DNA from: Geobacter sulfurreducens PCA
GTDB taxonomy: Bacteria > Desulfobacterota > Desulfuromonadia > Geobacterales > Geobacteraceae
DNA length: 32,000 nucleotides
Assembly: GCF_000007985.2 (NCBI RefSeq)
Contig: NC_002939.5
Location: 210,001 to 242,000 of the forward strand
Reading direction: 5' to 3'
Below are positions 16,422 to 25,534 of this stretch, in pieces; the first letter of the stretch is position 1, and every line of letters starts with the position of its first letter. The translations under genes were made by a program, and so were the position numbers. The notes under the pieces are model-generated. The model was given only the letters and a program-made list of their open reading frames with translations. It ran no database searches and was not told where the DNA came from.

Positions 16422-16988
16422 ATGGATACTCTTGAGGCAATCAGGACGCGACGGAGCGTGCGGGCATTTTCAGACCGGCCGGTGGAGCCGGAAAAGCTTC
16501 AGATGGTGCTGGAGGCGGCACGTCAGGCGCCCTCCTGGGCAAACATGCAGTGCAGCCGCTTCGTGGTGGTGCAGGATGCCGAAGTCAAGGCAAAGATCAG
16601 CGAGCTGTCGTTCGTGGAGGCATTTTTCGCGCCGCTCGGCTACAGGACCAACCCGGCCCAGAAGGCGCTCGCCGAAGCGCCGGTGGTGATCGTTGCCTGC
16701 GGCGTGCCCGGCGAGTCGGGCGATCTGCGCGGGCAGCAGTACTACATGACGGACGTGGGGATCGCCACGGAAAACCTCATGCTCGCCGCCCATGCCGTGG
16801 GACTCGGCTCGGTGTTTGTCGGCGTCTTCGGCGAGGAACAGCTCGGCGACCTCCTGGACATCCCGCCGGAGATCAGGATCGTTGGGCTTTTCCCCCTGGG
16901 CTATCCCCGGGAGGAGACGCAGGCGAAGTCGGGCCCGGCGCGCAAGCCCCTGGATGAGATCGTGTTCCAGGGCAAGTGGAAGTCCTAG
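16422..16988 (+). CDS. nitroreductase family protein
   Basis: The third in-frame ATG is preferred (AAGGAGG at 16408-16414, 7-nt spacing). N-terminus [16 protein letters not shown] and ...PSWANMQ... are typical nitroreductase-fold motifs. 188 aa. Confidence 0.88.
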
Positions 16989-17068
16989 CCGGCCGTTGGA
17001 AAGAACGCCGGTGCGGGACCGGCAGAACAGACCGCCCCCGCACCGGCCCTCGACAGGTTCCGGCGTCC

Positions 17069-17920
17069 ATGACGGAGGGAAGGGTGCTGCGATATCTCGT
17101 TATCCTCTGCCTGGCCCTGGTGCTGCCCCTGCACGGTGGCGCGGCCACCGACGGATCCACGCCGGTTGAAGAGCACCATCACCATGCTGCGCCGGCTGCG
17201 GCGGAGGCAGCCGGCGTGGGAGTCGACGAGCGGTTGGGGGAGAAGATTCCCCTCGACCTGACGTTCAACGACGAAGCCGGCCGGCCGGTTCGCTTGGCGG
17301 ATCTGGTTACGGGACCGACGATTATCCTTCCCGTTTACTACCGCTGCACCAATGTCTGCAATTTCCTCCAGAACGGCATGGCAGCGGTGATCCCCGAGAT
17401 ACGGCGGAAACCGGGGGAGGAGTACCGGGTGATTTCCGTCAGCTTCGACGAGACGGAGCCGCCCGATCTGGCTGCCCGTTACCGGCGGATCTATCAGGGT
17501 GCCATCACCACGCCGTTCCCTGGGGACGGCTGGCGGTTCCTGACCGGTGACGCGGCGAATATCCGGCAACTGACCGACGCGATCGGATATCGCTTCCAGC
17601 GGAAGGGGCGCGACTTCGTGCATCCGGTGGCAAGCGTGGTGATCGCCGGGGACGGCACCATCATCCGCTATCTCTACGGGACCGCCTTCCTGCCCAAGGA
17701 TGTGACCCTGGCCTTGCTGGAGGCGCGGGAGGGGAAAGTCGGCAAGACCATCCGGACGGTGGTGGGATACTGCTTTTCCTTTGATCCGAAGCAGAAAACC
17801 TATGTCTTCAACCTGCTGCGCGTGAGCGCCACGGTAGTCATCCTGACAGCCGGGGCATTTCTCGCCTTTCTGCTGACAACGGGCAGAACGGGCTCACGGC
17901 AGCGCAAGGGAGGATCATGA
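17069..17920 (+). CDS. SCO1/SenC family copper chaperone (thioredoxin fold) with C-terminal TM helix
   Basis: Signal/anchor LVILCLALVLPLHG, His run EEHHHH, CxxxC motif YYRCTNVCNF, conserved downstream His (DFVHPV). The start could also be the GTG at 17084 (GGAGGG 5 nt upstream). Confidence 0.85.
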   Translation: MTEGRVLRYLVILCLALVLPLHGGAATDGSTPVEEHHHHAAPAAAEAAGVGVDERLGEKIPLDLTFNDEAGRPVRLADLVTGPTIILPVYYRCTNVCNFLQNGMAAVIPEIRRKPGEEYRVISVSFDETEPPDLAARYRRIYQGAITTPFPGDGWRFLTGDAANIRQLTDAIGYRFQRKGRDFVHPVASVVIAGDGTIIRYLYGTAFLPKDVTLALLEAREGKVGKTIRTVVGYCFSFDPKQKTYVFNLLRVSATVVILTAGAFLAFLLTTGRTGSRQRKGGS

Positions 17921-19542
17921 ACCGGTCTGAACGGACAGGCTCCGCTGCCGGCTTCTGGAGCGATACGGAAAAGGGCGGTATCGGCGCCTGGCTTCTCTCC
18001 ACCGACCACAAACGGATCGGGCTGCTCTACTTCTGGTCGGTATTCGGCTTTTTCCTGGTGGGGGTCGTGTTGGGGCTCATCCTCCGGCTGGAGCTGATGG
18101 CGCCGGGGCGCACCATCATGGGGCCCGATGCCTACAATGCCTTTTTCACCGTACACGGCGTGGTGATGATCTTTCTCTTCATCATCCCCGGCATTCCCGG
18201 CGCCTTCGGCAACATGCTGATGCCGATCCAGATCGGGGCCCGGGACGTGGCCTTTCCCCGGTTGAATCTCCTCTCCTGGTGGCTCTATGCCACCGGCGCC
18301 GGCGTGATCCTCCTCTCCCTCGTCACAGGCGGCGGCCCGCCGGACACCGGCTGGACCTTCTACCTCCCCTTCAGCGGCCGCACGGCCACCAACGTTTCCC
18401 TTGCGGTTTTCGGGGTCTTCATTGTCGGATTCTCTTCCATCCTGACCGGGATCAATTTCGTAACCACCATCCACCGGCTCCGGGCCGAGGGGATGATCTG
18501 GGGGCGGCTTCCCCTCTTTGTCTGGTCCCTCTACGCCACGGCCTGGGTCCAGATCCTGGCCACGCCGATCCTCGGCATCACCCTGGTACTGATCATTGCC
18601 GAGCGGATCCTGGGGGTCGGCCTCTTCGATCCGAGCCGGGGGGGGGATCCCCTCATGTACCAGCATCTCTTCTGGATTTACTCCCACCCGGCGGTTTACA
18701 TCATGGTCCTGCCTGCCATGGGAGTGGTGTCGGAGATCATCCCGGTCTTTGCCCGAAAGCCCATCTTCGGCTACAAGATGATTGCCTTCTCCAGTCTTGC
18801 CATCGCAGCGGCCGGGTCGCTCGTCTGGGGACACCACATGTTCACCAGCGGCATGAGCGATACGGCGGTGCTGGTCTTCTCCTTCCTCTCCTTCATCGTG
18901 GCCATACCCTCGGCCATCAAGGTCTTCAACTGGATCTCCACCCTTTATCGGGGCTCCATCTCCCTGGATCCGCCCATGCTCTTCGCCCTCTCCTTCATCC
19001 TTCTCTTCTCCATCGGCGGGTTGACCGGCCTGATTCTCGGTGCGGCCGCCACCGACGTCCATGTGCACGACACCCACTTCGTGGTGGGGCACTTCCACTA
19101 CGTCATGTTCGGCGGCGCCGGCTTCGCCTTCTTCGCGGCCATGCACTACTGGCTGCCCAAGTTCTACGGGCGGATGTACGCCCGCCGGCCGGCGGTCATC
19201 GCCTGGGGGCTCATGTTCGTGGGGTTCAACATTCTCTATTTCACCATGAAGGTCCTCGGGATGAAGGGGATGCCGCGGCGCTACTACGATTACCTTCCCG
19301 AGTTCGCGACGCTCAACCTGGTGTCTACCATCGGCAGCTGGATCCTGGCTCTGGGGCTCGCTGTGATGCTGGTGAACCTGTTCCGGGGGCTGTGGAAGGG
19401 GGAGCCCGTGACCGAGGCGAATCCCTGGGGAGGCGCGACCCTGGAATGGACCATCCCGACCCCGCCCCCCACGGAGAACTTTGCCGAGGAGCCGGTGGTG
19501 ACCCACGGACCCTATGACTTCCGGGGAGCGGGGATACCATGA
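17917..19542 (+). CDS. coxA: cytochrome c oxidase subunit I
   Basis: 541 aa. Heme-copper oxidase motifs (WFFGHPEVY-like LFWIYSHPAVYIMVLP, HHMF, VVGHFHYV). Start overlaps the SCO stop (ATGA). Confidence 0.97.
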   Translation: MNRSERTGSAAGFWSDTEKGGIGAWLLSTDHKRIGLLYFWSVFGFFLVGVVLGLILRLELMAPGRTIMGPDAYNAFFTVHGVVMIFLFIIPGIPGAFGNMLMPIQIGARDVAFPRLNLLSWWLYATGAGVILLSLVTGGGPPDTGWTFYLPFSGRTATNVSLAVFGVFIVGFSSILTGINFVTTIHRLRAEGMIWGRLPLFVWSLYATAWVQILATPILGITLVLIIAERILGVGLFDPSRGGDPLMYQHLFWIYSHPAVYIMVLPAMGVVSEIIPVFARKPIFGYKMIAFSSLAIAAAGSLVWGHHMFTSGMSDTAVLVFSFLSFIVAIPSAIKVFNWISTLYRGSISLDPPMLFALSFILLFSIGGLTGLILGAAATDVHVHDTHFVVGHFHYVMFGGAGFAFFAAMHYWLPKFYGRMYARRPAVIAWGLMFVGFNILYFTMKVLGMKGMPRRYYDYLPEFATLNLVSTIGSWILALGLAVMLVNLFRGLWKGEPVTEANPWGGATLEWTIPTPPPTENFAEEPVVTHGPYDFRGAGIP

Positions 19543-20141
19543 GCCATGCGACCCATCGGGACTACGCCGGCGCCAAGCTCGGCATGTGGCTCTTTCTCTT
19601 CACGGAGATGCTTCTTTTCGGGGGACTCTTCATCCTCTATGCGGTCTATCTCCACCGCTACCCCGCGGAGTTCGCCGCGGCGGGGCACCGGCTCGACCTG
19701 GTTCTGGGCACGGCCAATACGGTGATCCTTCTCACCAGCAGTCTTCTGGCGGCACTGGCGGTAACGGCGGTCCAGCGGGACGAGGGGCGCGTGGCGTTCC
19801 GGGCGCTTGGGGGAACTATCCTTTGCGCCGGACTCTTCCTGGGTATCAAGTACGCTGAGTGGAGCGCCAAGATCAGTCACGGCATCTATCCCGGCTCACC
19901 GGACCTGGCGGCCGGACCGCCGGGGGAGTCGGTCTTTTTCGGTCTCTACTACCTCACCACCGGGCTCCACGGGCTCCACGTCCTGATCGGCGGGGTCCTG
20001 CTGACCGTGGTGGCGCGGCGGGTCAAGGGGGGCCGGGTTCATGCCGGCGATTATATTTGGCTCGAGAACGGGGCACTTTACTGGCACCTGGTGGACCTGG
20101 TCTGGATTTTCATCTTTCCGCTCTACTACCTCATGCTGTGA
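19539..20141 (+). CDS. coxC: cytochrome c oxidase subunit III
   Basis: 200 aa, 5 TM segments. LGMWLFLFTEMLLFGGLF and YWHLVDLVWIF motifs. ATGA overlap with subunit I. Confidence 0.93.
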   Translation: MSHATHRDYAGAKLGMWLFLFTEMLLFGGLFILYAVYLHRYPAEFAAAGHRLDLVLGTANTVILLTSSLLAALAVTAVQRDEGRVAFRALGGTILCAGLFLGIKYAEWSAKISHGIYPGSPDLAAGPPGESVFFGLYYLTTGLHGLHVLIGGVLLTVVARRVKGGRVHAGDYIWLENGALYWHLVDLVWIFIFPLYYLML

Positions 20142-20157
20142 CAGGAAGGAAAGGCGC

Positions 20158-20448
20158 ATGACGTCCGATTCCACAACCCACCGCCCCGTCGGCTACGGCA
20201 CCCTGGCCTCGGTCTGGGCAGCGCTTCTCATCCTTACCGCGGCCACGGTTTTTGTGACGAGGCTCGATCTGGGGGGATACAAGGTCGCGGCGGCCCTGAC
20301 CATAGCCTCCGTCAAGGGGGGGCTCGTGATCGCCGTGTTCATGCACATGAAATACGAGGGATGGCTCCTGCGGTGGCTCCTCTTCCTGGCCCTGGTGACC
20401 CTGGCCCTGTTCATCGGAATCACCTTCTTCGACGTGCTCTACCGCTGA
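20158..20448 (+). CDS. coxD: cytochrome c oxidase subunit IV (prokaryotic CoxD-like small membrane subunit)
   Basis: The in-frame ATG at 20158 follows GGAAGGAAAGG. 96 aa, 3 TM segments, KGGLVIAVFMHMKYE motif. Confidence 0.85.
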   Translation: MTSDSTTHRPVGYGTLASVWAALLILTAATVFVTRLDLGGYKVAAALTIASVKGGLVIAVFMHMKYEGWLLRWLLFLALVTLALFIGITFFDVLYR

Positions 20449-20457
20449 GGGACTGAC

Positions 20458-21372
20458 GTGCGCGATTTCCCTACCACCACAACCGAAGCCGTTGACCCGG
20501 TCTTCATGTTCATCCTGGGGGCCTGCATCCTCCTCCTGACCGGCATCACGGTGGTCATGGTGGCCTTTGTCATCCGCTACCACCGCTCCCGCTCCCCCGA
20601 GCCCACGTCGCAGGCGGCGACGAATCTCTGGCTGGAGATCGTCTGGACGGCCCTTCCCACGGTGCTGGTTCTGGCCATGTTCTACTACGGCTGGTCCAGC
20701 TACCTGTCGCTTCGTCATGTGCCGCCGGGGGCCATGGAAGTTACGGCCGTTGGCCGCATGTGGTCCTGGAGCTTCGAGTATCCGGGCGGCAGGACGAGCC
20801 CTCGTCTCTACGTGCCGGTGGGCAAGCCGGTGCGGGTCGATCTGGTGTCCAAAGACGTTCTGCACGGGTTCTATATTCCCGCATTCCGGGTGAAGCGGGA
20901 CGTGGTGCCGGGGATGAAGAACCATGTCTGGTTCGTGGCTCCCAAGGCAGGTTCCTATGACATCTTCTGCTCGGTTTACTGCGGTACCGGTCACTCGGCC
21001 ATGATCACTACAGTGGAGGCGATTCCCGACGCGGAGTTCCAGGCGTGGCTCAGCCATGGGGAGGAAGGGGAAAAGGAGAAAGAAGGACACGGCAGAGAAC
21101 TGCTGGAGAAGCACGGCTGCCTCGGCTGCCATTCCCTGGATGGGTCTCCCCGGCTGGGCCCCACGTTTAAGGGTATCTGGGGCCACCAGGTGACCGTGAC
21201 GGAGGATGGCGTCGAGCGGACCCTGACCGTGGACGAGGCATACCTCGTGCGTTCCATCCGTCAGCCGGCGGCCCAGGTTGTCAAGGGATTCCCGCCGGTC
21301 ATGCCGCCCTATCCGGGACTTAGCGATGAAGAGGTGGAGGAGATGGTGGAATTCATCAGGGAGCTCAAGTGA
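20458..21372 (+). CDS. coxB: cytochrome c oxidase subunit II with fused C-terminal cytochrome c domain (caa3-type)
   Basis: 304 aa, GTG start after GAGGGA. Two N-terminal TM segments. CuA motif HGFYIP ... [12 protein letters not shown]. Heme c site CLGCH. Confidence 0.93.
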
Positions 21373-22181
21373 CCCGGCAGGACCTTGTTCTCTTCAGGCC
21401 CCGGCTGGCGCTGCTGAATGGCATCGCGGCGGTGGCGGGGCATGCCCTTGTCCCCGATGCCGCACATGCGACTCTCTGGGTGGCGCTGGCGGGCGTCGCG
21501 ATCCTGGCCGCGGGGGGCTCGGCCCTTAACCAGGTGCTGGAGCGGGACCTGGACCGCCTCATGGAGCGGACCAGGCAACGGCCCCTGCCCCGGGGCGATC
21601 TCTCTCCCGCCATGGCCACTGCCCTTGGCTGTGCCTGCATCGGGACGGGCCTTTTGGTGCTTGCCGCTGGCGGCCCCGTCCCCCCGCTGCTCGGTGCCGT
21701 GGCGCTCGCCTGGTACCTGGCGGTCTATACGCCGCTCAAGCGCCGCACCTCCCTGGCCCTGGCCATCGGGGCCGTGAGCGGCGCACTTCCGCCGGTGATC
21801 GGCTGGACCCTTGCCGGGGGCGCGCCCGGAGATTATCGGATCATCCTCCTGGCGGGCATCTTCTTTCTCTGGCAGGTTCCCCACTTCTGGCTGTTCCAGC
21901 GCCGTCACGCCGACGACTACCGGCGGGCGGGCATCCCGCTGTTCACCCCGGGGGCGGGGAGACTCGGGCCTTCCTTCCATGTGCGGCTCTGGCTGGGCGC
22001 GCTCGCGGCGAGTGTTCTGCTCCTCCCCGCCTTCGGCCTCATGGCTCCGCGCATGGCCCCGTGGATCGCCGCGGTGCCGCTCCTGCTCCTCCCGGTCTGC
22101 CGTCCTCGCTCCGAAGCAACGCTTTTTTCCTGCCTCAATGCATTTCCGCCCCTGATGGCCCTGGCGCTGCTCCTCCGATAA
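21369..22181 (+). CDS. ctaB: protoheme IX farnesyltransferase (heme O synthase), UbiA family
   Basis: 270 aa polytopic membrane protein, GTG start overlapping the coxB stop. [21 protein letters not shown] (UbiA Asp-rich motif) and a second motif region [10 protein letters not shown]. Confidence 0.88.
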
Positions 22182-22201
22182 GGGAGCAGCGCCGGTACCC
22201 G

Positions 22202-22534
22202 TCAGGCCCTGATCATCACCAGCAGCATCTTGAACCGTTCCACGGCCCTCAGAGCGTGGGGGCGATCCGCGGGCATGATGATCATCTGCCCGGCGGCGAC
22301 CCGGTGGACCTGGCCGTCGATGGTAATGTCGGCGACGCCGTCCACGATCTGGACAAAGGCATCATAGGGGGCCGTGTGCTCGCTGAGTCCCTGGCCTTCG
22401 TCAAAGGCGAACAGGGTGATGGTGCCGATCTTCTTGTCGATGAGGGTGCGGCTCACGACCGAGCCGGGTTGGTACTGGGCCAGCTCGGACATGCCGATGG
22501 CGCGTCCCGCGAGAGTTTCGTTTCCTGTGCTCAT
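22202..22534 (-). CDS. cupin domain protein
   Basis: The internal ATG at 22534 follows GGGAGGA. 110 aa. Cupin motifs GLSEHTAPYDAF ... and GQMIIMPADRPHAL. Confidence 0.85.
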   Translation of the reverse strand: MSTGNETLAGRAIGMSELAQYQPGSVVSRTLIDKKIGTITLFAFDEGQGLSEHTAPYDAFVQIVDGVADITIDGQVHRVAAGQMIIMPADRPHALRAVERFKMLLVMIRA

Positions 22535-22606
22535 GATATCCTCCCGTGCTTTGTTGTGGTATGGGTACAGTATGCCGTATCCGGGGCGAATCGCCATTGA
22601 CGGGAG

Positions 22607-22747
22607 TCAAGGAAGGCGATTGCGGTTCTTTGCCGCGACAGCGGCTCCGTGCCGGCGCCGCCGCCAGATGCCGCGCAGGGCAAAGAACCCCCCGACGGCA
22701 GTCAGGGCCCAGATGGTTGCGGTGACGATCAGTTCACTTGTGGTCAT
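22607..22747 (-). CDS. small (46 aa) single-TM membrane protein, Arg-rich C-terminus
   Basis: ATG at 22747 with AGGAGG 6 nt upstream. MTTSELIVTATIWALTAVGGFFALRGIWRRRRHG. Lies 72 nt upstream of the cupin start codon on the same strand. Confidence 0.55.
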   Translation of the reverse strand: MTTSELIVTATIWALTAVGGFFALRGIWRRRRHGAAVAAKNRNRLP

Positions 22748-22927
22748 GGCATTCCTCCTGCGGTGATGGTGCTGCCATGTCTGGTACGATAGCATCGCCG
22801 GCCCGCGATGGCCTTGATGCAGGTCAAGGGTGGGCGGTCTTCCGTGGGGGTTGCCTCGCCGGCGGTGCCGGGTGTATGCTGTGCGACGGTCTGTCGATGC
22901 ACCGCCCCCGACTCCTGAGGGGCCGGT

Positions 22928-24556
22928 ATGTTACTGGAGGTTATTCCCTTGACCCTGCCGTTGCTGCTGACCCTGCTCCCCATCGTAGTCATCCTCGTCA
23001 TGCTTCTGGTGTTCCGCAAGGCCGCCGATGTGAGCGGCATCATCGGCTGGCTCGCCATCTCGGTGGTGGCCTGGCTCGGATTCCAGACCGCGCCGGAAGT
23101 CATTCTCCGCTCTACCGCCGCCGGCTTTATCCGCTCCTTTTCCGTGTCACTCATCGTGGCCACGTCGCTTCTGCAGATGGCGCTCATGGAGAAGACCGGC
23201 GCGCTCCGGCGGATCACCATCTTCATCAGGACCATTGCCAGCGACAACCGGGCCGTGCAGATCATGATGATCAACATCGGCTTCGGGACCCTCATGGTGG
23301 CGGTGGGGGCCACGCCGGTCTCGATCCTGCCGCCGATCCTGCTGGCCATGGGCTACTCCACCTACGTGGCCATCGCCCTGCCGGCAATCGGCTACGACTC
23401 GCTCTGCACCTATGCGCTCCTGGGCGCGCCCATCGTGGTCTTCGTGGATATCGCCAACAGTTTTCTCGGCAAGGGGAACGAGATCGCCCTTCACCAGGCC
23501 GGCATGGTCTTTTACATGTTCCTTCCGGTGGTTTCCACCATGATCGGGTTCTGCATGCTCTGGATCGTGGGGAAGTGGCAGGCGATCCGGGACGGGTGGC
23601 TCCCCTGCCTCCTCACCGGCGCGGTCATCGGCGTGGTGGCCCGCTTCACCAATCAGTACGACAACCTGGTGGTGCTGACGGGCGTCCTCTGCGGCATCGC
23701 CGTCATTGCCGCCATGGCGGCCTACCTGGTTGTCACCGGCGGCAAAGTGATCGACCGCTCCCTCCTCTCCGCCGAGGAGCGGGAATTCGCCGCAGCCATG
23801 CCCCTCTGGCGGGCTTTCATGCCGTGGACCCTCCTCGTTATCCTTATTCTCGTCCTGAACGTTCCCCAGGACCTTTTCTCTTGGCTCTACCGGACCATGA
23901 AACTGCCCATCGCGGGCCTTACGGCCGACGGCAAGCCCCTGGACACGCGGGCCCTGTGGCAGGCCTACACCTGGATCCTGGTCAGCACCATCCTGGCCGT
24001 GCCGTTCCTGAAGCCCACGGGGGAGCAGCTCCGGGAAACAGTCCGGACCTGGGTCCGGCGGGCACCCCGGCCGGTGTTCGCGGCAGCCGTTTTCTTTGCC
24101 ATCGGCGAGATAATGAACATGGCGGGCTACGATATGGCGGCGGGCCGGTTCGTTGTGCCGAGCATGGTCACGGTGCTGGCCGATTCCTCGGCGCTGGCCT
24201 TCCAGGGGATGTACGGGGAGGTGGTGGCGTTCATCGGGCTTTTCGGCGGGTTCATCACCGGCAGCGAGGCATCGACCATCGCCATGTTCGCCAAGTACAC
24301 CATGACCACGGCCAAGAACCTGGACATGCCGCTGTCGGGGCTGATCATCGTCACGGCGGGGCTCGCCTTCGGCGGTGGGCTTGCCAGCGTCATCTCGCCC
24401 GCCAAGCTCCAGAACGCTGCTGCAGCCATCGACAGGATCGGCGAGGAGGGGAAGGTGATCCGCATCGCCTTTGTCTTCGCACTCCTGCTGACCCTGGTCA
24501 CCTCCCTGTTCGTGGTGGTTCTGCTCACGGTCAACGGCATGGGGAGAGTTTCGTGA
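22928..24556 (+). CDS. L-lactate/glycolate permease (LctP) family transporter
   Basis: 542 aa, many TM segments. The N-terminal third resembles LctP family proteins (LLQMALMEKTGAL..., GFGTLMVAVGATP). Confidence 0.85.
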   Translation: MLLEVIPLTLPLLLTLLPIVVILVMLLVFRKAADVSGIIGWLAISVVAWLGFQTAPEVILRSTAAGFIRSFSVSLIVATSLLQMALMEKTGALRRITIFIRTIASDNRAVQIMMINIGFGTLMVAVGATPVSILPPILLAMGYSTYVAIALPAIGYDSLCTYALLGAPIVVFVDIANSFLGKGNEIALHQAGMVFYMFLPVVSTMIGFCMLWIVGKWQAIRDGWLPCLLTGAVIGVVARFTNQYDNLVVLTGVLCGIAVIAAMAAYLVVTGGKVIDRSLLSAEEREFAAAMPLWRAFMPWTLLVILILVLNVPQDLFSWLYRTMKLPIAGLTADGKPLDTRALWQAYTWILVSTILAVPFLKPTGEQLRETVRTWVRRAPRPVFAAAVFFAIGEIMNMAGYDMAAGRFVVPSMVTVLADSSALAFQGMYGEVVAFIGLFGGFITGSEASTIAMFAKYTMTTAKNLDMPLSGLIIVTAGLAFGGGLASVISPAKLQNAAAAIDRIGEEGKVIRIAFVFALLLTLVTSLFVVVLLTVNGMGRVS

Positions 24557-24572
24557 GCCCGGAGGGGCGGGG

Positions 24573-25490
24573 ATGAGGGCGGTCGAGCTCTTCTGCGGCA
24601 TCGGCGGTTTCGCCGCCGCGGTGGAGGGGACGGGCGTCCGCGTGGTGGCGGCTATGGACCAGGACGAGGCGGCCCTTGCCACTTACCGGCTCAACTTCCC
24701 CGGCCACGGCGCGCGGAAGGTGGATCTGGAGCGGGTGAGCGCCTGGGAGCTGACCGCAGGAGGGGTAGACCTCTGGTGGCTGTCGCCTCCGTGCCAGCCT
24801 TACTGCGAACGGGGCGTCCGCCGGGATCTGGCTGATCCCCGGGCCCGGAGCCTCGTGCATATCCTCAATCTGGCCGCCAGGATGTCCGATGAGGCTCTGC
24901 CGCGCCATCTGGCCCTGGAGAACGTGGCCGGCTTTGTCGGCTCCGAAGCCCACGGCCGGCTCACGGAGGTGCTGTCGTCGCGGGGGTACCGGCTGCAGGA
25001 GCGGCTGCTCTGCCCCACGGAGCTGGGCATTCCCTCCCGTCGCCCCCGCTACTATCTGGCCGCCTCCCGGGAGTCCCTGGCACCGGCGGAGGTTCTCTCG
25101 CCACTGCCCCGGCAGCCTTTGGCCGAGTACCTTGATCTCCTGCCGGCAAACGGCCAGCCGGCCGAGCTCCTGCTCTCCCCCGCCATCGTGGAACGGTTCG
25201 GCGCGGGCTTCCGCATTCTCGACCCTGCCGATCCCGATGCCTACACCACCTGCTTCACTTCGGGCTACGGCAGGTCCCTCACGGCATCGGGGGCCTACCT
25301 GCGCTGCAGCGACGGTGTCAGGCGTTTTTCCCCCGAGGAGATCGCCCGCCTGCTGCACTTTCCACCGTCGTTCCGCTTTCCGGAAGAGGTGCCGCTGCGC
25401 AAGCGCTGGCAACTGGTGGGGAACAGTCTGTCCGTGGCCGCGGTGCGGGAGGTGCTTCGGGCGTTGCCGTTACCGGCTGAGGAGGGGTGA
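24573..25490 (+). CDS. Dnmt2-family C5-cytosine methyltransferase (probable tRNA m5C38 methyltransferase)
   Basis: 305 aa. Motif I ELFCGIGG, IV SPPCQPY, VI ENVAGF, VIII RRPRYYL, Dnmt2-specific CFT motif TCFTSGYG, IX RRFSPEEIARLLHFP, X LVGNSLSV. Very short target-recognition region. Confidence 0.85.
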   Translation: MRAVELFCGIGGFAAAVEGTGVRVVAAMDQDEAALATYRLNFPGHGARKVDLERVSAWELTAGGVDLWWLSPPCQPYCERGVRRDLADPRARSLVHILNLAARMSDEALPRHLALENVAGFVGSEAHGRLTEVLSSRGYRLQERLLCPTELGIPSRRPRYYLAASRESLAPAEVLSPLPRQPLAEYLDLLPANGQPAELLLSPAIVERFGAGFRILDPADPDAYTTCFTSGYGRSLTASGAYLRCSDGVRRFSPEEIARLLHFPPSFRFPEEVPLRKRWQLVGNSLSVAAVREVLRALPLPAEEG

Positions 25491-25505: not shown

Positions 25506-25534
25506 AAAAAAGGCGGCTCAAGGCCGCCTTTTTT
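25506..25534. terminator. bidirectional rho-independent terminator
   Basis: AAAAAAGGCGGC-tcaag-GCCGCCTTTTTT between convergent genes. A tract on one side and T tract on the other. Confidence 0.9.

What the first reader, a model, noticed from the sequence alone, without database searches (positions are those of the whole stretch)
24573..25490. Eukaryote-type Dnmt2 (tRNA m5C) methyltransferase homolog in a bacterial chromosome
The 305-aa product has all the m5C-MTase motifs. It also has the CFT motif (TCFTSGYG) and a very short target-recognition region, which distinguish Dnmt2/TRDMT1 enzymes from bacterial restriction-modification Dcm-type enzymes.

There is no neighbouring restriction endonuclease, Vsr or mobile gene. 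The gene starts 16 nt after a lactate-permease-family gene and ends at a strong bidirectional terminator, so it looks co-transcribed with a transporter.

Dnmt2 homologs are rare in bacteria. From memory (verify), the Geobacter sulfurreducens homolog was reported to methylate tRNA-Glu rather than tRNA-Asp. It is therefore known in outline, but its physiological role and its operon link to a carboxylate permease are unexplained.
Basis: partly seen in the sequence, partly recalled or inferred. Interest (0 to 1): 0.7.

Follow-up and report, generated by a model that had tools for sequence, protein, structure and literature searches.

The report
Known Geobacter tRNA-Glu methylase GsDnmt2
This gene is GSU0227 of Geobacter sulfurreducens, the bacterial Dnmt2 enzyme shown in 2014 to methylate cytosine 38 of tRNA-Glu, so the reading is correct but the gene is already known, and its link to a neighbouring permease gene is a recent, lineage-specific juxtaposition.

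Summary
ORF 24573-25490 (+) encodes a 305-aa cytosine-5 methyltransferase with all the catalytic motifs, including the TCFTSGYG motif. It starts 16 nt after an LctP-family permease gene and ends at a bidirectional hairpin terminator. No restriction endonuclease, Vsr or mobile gene lies within about 8 kb.

All five solved Dnmt2 structures outrank every DNA methyltransferase by sequence, by profile and by predicted fold.

The gene is not new. The published cloning primers for GsDnmt2 (GSU0227, Shanmugam et al. 2014) match the ORF's first 23 and last 22 bases with no mismatch. The neighbouring permease is 100% identical to a G. sulfurreducens protein. [quoted passage not shown]

The permease link is not conserved. 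It is absent from all 80 related loci and occurs only in the G. sulfurreducens/anodireducens group. Co-transcription is likely but untested.

By-product: Dnmt2-like genes occur in at least 141 bacterial species genomes labelled as at least five phyla. In a crude tree, eukaryotic Dnmt2 nests inside them. That questions the published "few bacteria, acquired from eukaryotes" view.

Interest is low: the gene is already known.

The parts
24573..25490 (+). GSU0227 / GsDnmt2, a 305-aa tRNA (cytosine38-C5)-methyltransferase of the Dnmt2 family. Catalytic Cys74 is at nt 24792-24794 and the CFT motif TCFTSGYG at nt 25248-25271.
   Evidence: ORF. Pfam PF00145. Dnmt2 structures are the top hits by sequence, profile and fold. 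The published GSU0227 cloning primers match 24573-24595 (+) and 25469-25490 (-) with 0 mismatches.
24561..24565 (+). GGAGG Shine-Dalgarno sequence, 7 nt upstream of the Dnmt2 ATG, inside the 16-nt gap after the permease stop codon.
   Evidence: Read directly from the sequence. Inference only.
25506..25534 (.). Bidirectional intrinsic terminator: a GC-rich hairpin flanked by A6 and T6, shared by the convergent Dnmt2 and FKBP/SlyD genes.
   Evidence: Folds at -19.3 kcal/mol (+) and -17.8 kcal/mol (-), z = -2.4 and -4.4. The only sub-threshold Rfam hit here is the terminator end of an sRNA model.
22928..24556 (+). GSU0226, an LctP-family permease (542 aa), probably the first gene of a two-gene transcript with Dnmt2. 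The pairing is lineage-specific.
   Evidence: Full-length Pfam Lactate_perm match at 125 bits. Below the NCBIfam lctP cut-off, 113.7 against 341. 100% identical to 'L-lactate permease [Geobacter sulfurreducens]'. Adjacent to Dnmt2 only in the G. sulfurreducens/anodireducens group and in 0 of 80 other loci.
22748..22927 (.). Divergent intergenic region upstream of the permease. It is partly homologous to the region directly upstream of Dnmt2 in relatives that lack the permease. It contains the conserved palindrome TTGATGCAGGTCAA (22814-22827).
   Evidence: Alignment with G. metallireducens, G. hydrogenophilus, L068 and the P0003 lineage. Coordinates. Its role as a promoter or operator is inferred, not shown.

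Best explanation
The ORF is GSU0227 of Geobacter sulfurreducens (GsDnmt2). It is a stand-alone Dnmt2-family enzyme that uses the DNA-methyltransferase-type mechanism. Cys74 of the PPCQ motif attacks C6 of the target cytosine, Glu116 of ENV assists, and S-adenosylmethionine bound by motif I donates the methyl group. [quoted passage not shown]

Shown by published experiments on this same gene: activity on tRNA-Glu C38 in vitro and in cells, loss of activity in the C74A mutant, and a GG dinucleotide in the tRNA variable loop acting as an anti-determinant.

Shown here: the identity of the gene, its family membership by sequence, profile and fold, the lack of any restriction-modification or mobile context, and a codon composition like that of its neighbours.

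Inferred: the gene is transcribed together with the upstream LctP-family permease gene, given the 16-nt gap, the gene's own Shine-Dalgarno, the absence of an intervening terminator and the shared terminator after Dnmt2. Relatives without the permease have Dnmt2 directly after the same divergent region, so either an insertion in this lineage or a loss in the others would explain the layout, and the data do not decide. The pairing is best read as a genomic accident, not a functional coupling.
For: - Identity: the GSU0227 primers from PMC4041430 Methods match 24573-24595 and 25469-25490 with 0 mismatches. The C74A mutagenesis primer matches the Cys74 region except for the four designed base changes (my comparison). 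The catalytic Cys has the same number, 74. The neighbouring permease is 100% identical to a G. sulfurreducens protein.
- Family: Dnmt2 structures score 87-154 bits against 62 for M.HhaI. The profile gives 172-225 bits against 89. Foldseek gives TM 0.81-0.86 for Dnmt2 and 0.76 for HhaI, with the top nine hits all Dnmt2. The CFT motif and all catalytic motifs are present.
- No Dnmt2-like gene on 72,556 plasmids: the best hit is a 27.5%-identical Dcm type.
- Function: in vitro and in vivo tRNA-Glu C38 methylation is published (PMC4041430).
- Operon: 16-nt gap and Shine-Dalgarno. No terminator between the genes. A 4-nt overlap of the two genes in G. anodireducens. The same order in 97%-identical loci.
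- No conserved partner: permease next to Dnmt2 in 0 of 80 loci. No neighbour family is shared by more than 7 of 80 loci.
Against: - I compared the window with the published primers and with cluster representatives, not with the full GSU0227 record. Internal differences from strain PCA cannot be excluded, and the gene is known to vary between strains (PMC3495685).
- Reported cellular methylation was partial: 22-36% of bisulfite clones.
- No knockout exists (the attempt was reported as unsuccessful), so dependence of cellular m5C38 on this gene is inferred from the match between in vitro and in vivo specificity.
- Co-transcription with the permease is untested. A weak promoter-like site (9/12 match) lies inside the permease gene at 24321-24348 and could give Dnmt2 its own transcript.
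Confidence: 0.93

Rival explanations
1. It is an orphan DNA cytosine-5 methyltransferase (Dcm-like) acting on a genomic sequence motif, as its database names ('DNA cytosine methyltransferase') suggest and as one 2024 methylome paper assumes.
For: It has the Pfam PF00145 DNA_methylase domain. Motif I has Phe as in bacterial DNA methyltransferases, not the Tyr typical of Dnmt2 (PMC10653749). Sources name its homologs DNA methyltransferases. PMC11388800 lists GSU0227 as one of two DNA methyltransferase genes.
Against: Every Dnmt2 structure outranks every DNA methyltransferase by at least 25 bits for the single sequence and at least 83 bits for the profile. The NCBIfam dcm model scores below its cut-off. 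No endonuclease or Vsr partner is present. The purified enzyme methylates tRNA C38 (PMC4041430). The 2024 paper gives no evidence of DNA activity for this gene.
Confidence: 0.03
2. The permease-Dnmt2 pair is a functional unit: uptake of a carboxylate such as lactate or glycolate is deliberately co-regulated with tRNA-Glu methylation, linking nutrient state to translation.
For: The two genes are tightly packed and co-oriented: a 16-nt gap here, a 19-nt gap in 97%-identical loci, and a 4-nt overlap in G. anodireducens. In another Geobacter lineage a different transporter (MFS_1) overlaps the 3' end of Dnmt2.
Against: The permease is absent next to Dnmt2 in 80 of 80 related loci from other species. 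G. metallireducens, G. hydrogenophilus and others have Dnmt2 directly after the same divergent region. Homologs of the permease that are 78-80% identical sit alone in unrelated contexts. No neighbour family recurs across the family.
Confidence: 0.08
3. The gene is a eukaryote-to-Geobacter horizontal transfer, as proposed in the literature (PMC3227630, PMC4041430).
For: The published phylogeny and the enzyme's residual activity on eukaryotic tRNA-Asp were read this way. Eukaryotic Dnmt2 are its closest characterised relatives.
Against: Homologs with the CFT pattern occur in 141 species-representative bacterial genomes, labelled Geobacteraceae, Desulfuromonadales, Syntrophales, Acidobacteriota, Planctomycetota, Riflebacteria, Myxococcales and Actinobacteria. 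At least 150 clusters at 50% identity score above human DNMT2. Acidobacterial and planctomycete members are closer to human DNMT2 than the Geobacter one is. In NJ bootstraps eukaryotes are monophyletic (97/100) and never sister to all bacteria (0/100). The gene sits in a syntenic chromosomal slot in Geobacter with host-like GC3. Caveat: the tree is crude and uses only three eukaryotes.
Confidence: 0.15

Closest known systems
GsDnmt2 (GSU0227) of Geobacter sulfurreducens, Shanmugam et al. 2014, Nucleic Acids Res 42:6487 (PMC4041430)
   Same: It is the same gene. Both cloning primers match the ORF ends exactly, the catalytic Cys is at position 74, the neighbouring gene is 100% identical to a G. 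sulfurreducens protein, and the cox-operon context matches the GSU0218-GSU0223 numbering.
   Different: Nothing detectable with these tools. The internal sequence was not compared base by base with the deposited record.
Eukaryotic Dnmt2/TRDMT1 (human DNMT2 1G55/9HGM, S. pombe Pmt1 6FDF, Spodoptera 4H0N, Entamoeba Ehmeth 3QV2)
   Same: All ten methyltransferase motifs, the CFT motif, a GNSLSV-type motif X and the overall fold (TM 0.81-0.86). About 23-32% identity.
   Different: Shorter variable region, with no TRED-like insertion. Phe instead of Tyr in motif I and Ser instead of Asn in motif VIII. It prefers tRNA-Glu over its own tRNA-Asp (literature).
Bacterial type II / orphan DNA cytosine-5 methyltransferases (M.HhaI, M.HaeIII, Dcm)
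   Same: Shared catalytic domain and chemistry, and the same Pfam family PF00145.
   Different: Much lower similarity (62-89 bits against 154-225). No CFT motif in those enzymes. No endonuclease or Vsr neighbour here, whereas the Thauera plasmid dcm used as outgroup has an adjacent vsr. Below the NCBIfam dcm cut-off.

Membership tests
Dnmt2 / TRDMT1 tRNA (cytosine38-C5)-methyltransferases | Complete set of cytosine-5 methyltransferase catalytic motifs: I FxGxG, IV PCQ with catalytic Cys, VI ENV, VIII RxR, IX, X GN. | tested here: met
   FCGIG 7-11, PPCQ 72-75, ENV 116-118, SRRPR 155-159, RRFSPEE 250-256, GNS 283-285. These are invariant across 48 homologs.
Dnmt2 / TRDMT1 tRNA (cytosine38-C5)-methyltransferases | CFT motif in the target-recognition region. 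The literature uses it to separate Dnmt2 from other m5C methyltransferases (PMC4041430, PMC10653749). | tested here: met
   TCFTSGYG at residues 226-233. C227, F228, Y232 and G233 are invariant in the 48-sequence alignment.
Dnmt2 / TRDMT1 tRNA (cytosine38-C5)-methyltransferases | Closer in sequence and fold to characterised Dnmt2 enzymes than to any DNA methyltransferase. | tested here: met
   Single sequence: 154-87 bits against 62. Profile: 225-172 bits against 89. The Foldseek top nine hits are all Dnmt2. It groups with eukaryotic Dnmt2 apart from three Dcm outgroups in the NJ tree.
Dnmt2 / TRDMT1 tRNA (cytosine38-C5)-methyltransferases | Methylates C38 of a tRNA (Asp, or Glu in Geobacter) rather than DNA. 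| not testable with these tools
   Published for GSU0227 in vitro and by tRNA bisulfite sequencing (PMC4041430). The window ORF is that gene by primer match.
Dnmt2 / TRDMT1 tRNA (cytosine38-C5)-methyltransferases | Typical but not defining residues: Tyr in motif I (ELYSG) and Asn before the RxR of motif VIII. | tested here: not met
   Phe7 and Ser155 are found instead. PMC10653749 already lists Ser for G. sulfurreducens as a known exception. These are clade signatures of eukaryotic Dnmt2, not membership criteria.
Restriction-modification or Vsr-linked Dcm-type DNA methyltransferases | Adjacent restriction endonuclease, Vsr or mobile-element gene, or location on a mobile replicon. | tested here: not met
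   No such domain was found among the genes called within about 8 kb on either side. No close relative was found on 72,556 plasmids. The chromosomal position is syntenic with G. metallireducens.
Restriction-modification or Vsr-linked Dcm-type DNA methyltransferases | Passes the curated NCBIfam dcm model (TIGR00675). | tested here: not met
   94.6 bits against a cut-off of 100.65.
   Permease adjacent in 0 of 80 loci. It is present only in loci of the G. sulfurreducens/anodireducens group. Permease homologs elsewhere stand alone.

The most novel reading that the evidence does not exclude
Dnmt2 is not a eukaryotic enzyme that strayed into a few bacteria. It is a large, old bacterial family of stand-alone tRNA-type methyltransferases, found in genomes labelled Desulfuromonadales/Geobacteraceae, Syntrophales, Acidobacteriota, Planctomycetota, Riflebacteria, Myxococcales and Actinobacteria, from which the eukaryotic enzyme descends. 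On this reading the Geobacter gene is vertically inherited. Its tRNA-Glu preference may be one of several bacterial specificities rather than a post-transfer 'swap'.
Probability: 0.45. Interest if true: 0.5.

Novelty: already known. Interest (0 to 1): 0.15.

Why it matters
For this window it matters little. The gene is the published GsDnmt2, so the scan rediscovered a characterised enzyme. It is still widely mislabelled 'DNA cytosine methyltransferase', and at least one methylome paper has followed that label.

Two things remain open and testable. The first is the physiological role of tRNA-Glu m5C38 in Geobacter; the reported knockout attempt failed. The second is the origin of the family. 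The wide bacterial distribution found here would, if confirmed by a proper phylogeny, reverse the accepted direction of transfer. It would also offer many bacterial Dnmt2 enzymes for studying how tRNA specificity evolves.

Tried and rejected
- The consensus promoter/terminator scan missed the obvious terminator. It gave only one weak promoter-like site, inside the permease gene, so it was not used as evidence for or against an operon.
- No tRNA genes are in the window. The organism's tRNA-Glu and tRNA-Asp C38 and variable loops could not be inspected.
- Rfam found nothing at gathering threshold in the window. The one sub-threshold hit is the terminator, so no riboswitch or leader explains the permease-Dnmt2 pair.
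- I looked for a conserved neighbour across 80 loci by tblastn and by clustering crude ORF calls. None was found. The crude gene calling picks up antisense ORFs in high-GC DNA, so only the negative conclusion was used.
- I tested whether the conserved 46-aa ORF upstream is a universal Dnmt2 partner. It is confined to the closest Geobacter clade.
- I considered the conserved TTGATGCAGGTCAA element as the Dnmt2 promoter. Its spacing is constant relative to the small ORF on the other strand and variable relative to Dnmt2 or the permease, so it more likely serves the small ORF.
- The supplement of PMC4041430 is not held. G. pickeringii P0017 is not on record for contig look-up.
- A literature search for transcription-unit data on GSU0226/0227 found nothing usable.
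- The statement 'bacterial DNMT2 acts as a DNA methyltransferase' in PMC5456315 refers loosely to M.HhaI-type enzymes, not to GSU0227. It was rejected as counter-evidence.

Full report
**Observation**

The ORF at 24573..25490 (+) exists and encodes 305 residues. It matches Pfam PF00145 (C-5 cytosine methylase) at E = 6e-34.

All catalytic motifs are present: FCGIG 7-11, PPCQ 72-75 (Cys74), ENV 116-118, SRRPR 155-159, RRFSPEE 250-256 and GNS 283-285. The Dnmt2-diagnostic TCFTSGYG sits at residues 226-233. Motifs VIII and IX are only 91 residues apart. Alignments with eukaryotic Dnmt2 need insertions on the eukaryotic side.

The upstream gene 22928..24556 (+) is a full-length Lactate_perm match. 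Its stop codon is followed by 16 nt that contain a GGAGG 7 nt before the ATG.

Fifteen nt after the Dnmt2 stop codon lies a hairpin, 25506-25534, flanked by an A-run and a T-run. It folds well on both strands (-19.3 and -17.8 kcal/mol, z = -2.4 and -4.4). It separates Dnmt2 from a convergent FKBP/SlyD gene.

The genes I scanned within about 8 kb are nitroreductase, SCO1, COX1, COX3, COX2, UbiA, cupin, the permease, FKBP, an acyl-CoA synthetase, PilT and a DUF4388 protein. A cox subunit IV gene and a 46-aa ORF are also called in the near-identical locus L081. None is a restriction endonuclease, Vsr or mobile-element gene. Every factual element of the finding is confirmed.

**What it is**

- phmmer against all PDB sequences ranks the five solved Dnmt2 enzymes first: human 154 bits, S. 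pombe 118, Spodoptera 109 and Entamoeba 87. M.HhaI follows at 62 bits.
- A profile of 48 homologs widens the gap to 172-225 bits against 89.
- The NCBIfam dcm model scores below its own cut-off (94.6 against 100.65).
- An AlphaFold2 model (mean pLDDT 90.4) finds only Dnmt2 structures in its top nine Foldseek hits (TM 0.81-0.86). M.HhaI comes next at 0.76.
- Among 72,556 plasmids the best match is an ordinary Dcm type at 27.5% identity.

The protein therefore clusters with Dnmt2 and not with type II DNA methyltransferases.

**It is the published gene**

The Methods of Shanmugam et al. 2014 (PMC4041430) give the primers used to clone GsDnmt2 = GSU0227.
- The gene-specific part of the forward primer matches 24573-24595 (+) with 0 mismatches.
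- The reverse primer matches 25469-25490 (-) with 0 mismatches. These are exactly the first and last bases of the ORF.
- The C74A mutagenesis primer matches the Cys74 region except for four designed base changes (plus my comparison).
- The paper's catalytic Cys is also residue 74.
- The neighbouring permease is 100% identical to 'L-lactate permease [Geobacter sulfurreducens]'.

The window is therefore G. sulfurreducens, and the ORF is the characterised enzyme.

**What is published about this gene**

That paper reports the following.
- The purified enzyme methylates C38 of fly and mouse tRNA-Asp.
- It is about ten-fold more active on Geobacter tRNA-Glu than on Geobacter tRNA-Asp.
- The C74A enzyme and C38U tRNAs are inactive.
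- Cellular tRNA-Glu isodecoders carry m5C38 in 22-36% of bisulfite clones, while tRNA-Asp does not.
- A knockout attempt was unsuccessful.

**The permease link**

Co-transcription is plausible from the sequence. The gap is 16 nt, the gene has its own Shine-Dalgarno, no terminator lies between the genes, and one terminator follows the pair. The only promoter-like match is a weak one inside the permease gene at 24321-24348.

The pairing is not conserved.
- In 80 loci from other species that carry a Dnmt2 homolog, a relative of this permease lies next to it in none.
- No neighbouring gene family recurs in more than 7 of those 80 loci.
- The pair is seen only in 97%-identical loci and in G. anodireducens, where the two genes overlap by 4 nt.

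Other Geobacter genomes show a different layout.
- G. metallireducens has the same chromosomal slot: cox operon, UbiA, then Dnmt2, acyl-CoA synthetase, FKBP, PilT and a DUF4388-type protein (Pfam PatA_N). It has no permease.
- G. hydrogenophilus, L002 and L068 are similar.
- In another lineage an MFS transporter overlaps the 3' end of Dnmt2 instead.
- Homologs of the permease at 78-80% identity stand alone in unrelated contexts.

The divergent region upstream of the permease is partly homologous to the region directly upstream of Dnmt2 in the relatives. Either the permease was inserted between that region and Dnmt2 in the G. sulfurreducens lineage, or it was lost from the others. The data do not decide. 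I read the link as a young juxtaposition that probably gives a shared transcript. I do not read it as evidence of a functional coupling.

**Distribution and origin (by-product)**

The literature I could read up to 2016 speaks of 'very few' or 'a handful' of bacterial Dnmt2 homologs, acquired from eukaryotes (PMC3227630, PMC4041430, PMC5699548). My results point the other way.
- A pattern scan of one genome per GTDB species found 141 genomes with a confirmed relative. The 80 loci kept carry labels of Geobacteraceae, Desulfuromonadales, Syntrophales, Acidobacteriota, Planctomycetota, Riflebacteria, Myxococcales and Actinobacteria, most from metagenome bins.
- An exhaustive HMMER search of 1.8 billion cluster representatives found 468 hits at E ≤ 1e-30. 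The best 150 all score above the level of human DNMT2. Of these, 103 have CFT, 19 CFG and 12 CFA.
- Ten were looked up. The four that carry a source name with an organism are bacterial.
- An acidobacterial and a planctomycete member score 160 and 181 bits to human DNMT2, against 79 and 69 to M.HhaI. That is closer to the human enzyme than the Geobacter protein is.
- I built a neighbour-joining tree rooted on three plasmid Dcm enzymes. The three eukaryotic sequences are monophyletic in 97 of 100 bootstraps. They are never sister to all bacterial sequences (0 of 100). The Geobacter clade is recovered in 97 of 100.
- The gene's GC3 (0.83) is like that of its neighbours (0.79-0.89).

This argues against a eukaryote-to-Geobacter transfer. 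The tree is crude, uses three partial eukaryotic sequences, and many taxon labels come from metagenome bins. I did not find this wide distribution described in the papers I searched, but I cannot claim it is unpublished.

**Verdict**

The finding is real and correctly interpreted. It is also already known: the window carries the experimentally characterised GsDnmt2. The 'unexplained operon link' is best explained as a lineage-specific juxtaposition. Interest for the scan is low. The only lead with some novelty is the family-wide distribution and what it implies for the origin of Dnmt2.

Noticed in passing
window 22607-22747 (-), 22786-22794 (-) and 22814-22827: A 46-aa single-helix ORF (MTTSELIVTATIWALTAVGGFFALRG...) is conserved, divergently oriented, just upstream of Dnmt2 in G. 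metallireducens, G. hydrogenophilus, L002, L068 and the P0003 lineage. In this window it lies upstream of the permease. About 67 nt from its start, at constant spacing, is a conserved FNR/CRP-like palindrome, TTGATGCAGGTCAA. By my count the palindrome is centred at -41.5 from an extended -10-like TGCTATCGT on the minus strand. This looks like a class II activator-dependent promoter for the small gene.
   Followed up: partly
L086 8001-8075 (G. metallireducens), L068 and L083, compared with window 22808-22918: The N-terminal extensions of annotated Geobacter Dnmt2 homologs (330-346 aa against 305 aa here) are not conserved as protein. They read the conserved upstream DNA element in different frames, so their start codons are probably called too far upstream.
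   Followed up: partly
L001-L080; P0121-P0270: Dnmt2-like genes with a CF[TGA]xxYG motif are widespread in bacteria: 141 species-representative genomes labelled as at least five phyla, and more than 150 clusters at 50% identity. Their genomic neighbourhoods vary widely. Eukaryotic Dnmt2 nests inside them in a crude NJ tree.
   Followed up: partly
P0122 / P0271 (Syntrophales, 471 aa): A Dnmt2-like domain (51% identical to the window protein over residues 1-299) is fused to a C-terminal extension. The source names the protein 'putative molybdenum carrier protein'. This is a domain fusion not seen in eukaryotic Dnmt2.
   Followed up: no
window 22928-24556; P0278-P0397: The LctP-family permease scores far below the NCBIfam lctP cut-off (113.7 against 341). 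Yet it has 74-82% identical homologs in bins labelled Spirochaetota, Leptospirales, Bacillota, Edwardsbacteria and Geomonas. It appears to be an unusually conserved, probably horizontally spread subfamily whose substrate is not established.
   Followed up: partly
window about 16976-25490 (GSU0218-GSU0227): PMC3495685 lists GSU0227 (19.6 non-synonymous SNPs per kb) and the neighbouring cox genes among the 3.6% most diverged orthologs between strains PCA and KN400. The 88% and 97% identical metagenomic alleles (P0002, P0001) are consistent with this. The region may be a recombination hot spot.
   Followed up: no
L086 12523-13518 (G. metallireducens): In G. metallireducens a tRNA-dihydrouridine synthase (Dus) gene lies about 3.5 kb downstream of Dnmt2, between the MFS and FKBP genes. 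No Dus gene was seen among the genes annotated in the corresponding stretch of the window.
   Followed up: no
window 25506-25534: The consensus terminator scanner did not report this clear hairpin with a T-run, although folding does. This is a caution for relying on that scan alone.
   Followed up: yes
literature (PMC11388800): A 2024 G. sulfurreducens methylome paper treats GSU0227 as one of two DNA methyltransferase genes. The database name 'DNA cytosine methyltransferase' is still misleading users ten years after the tRNA activity was shown.
   Followed up: yes
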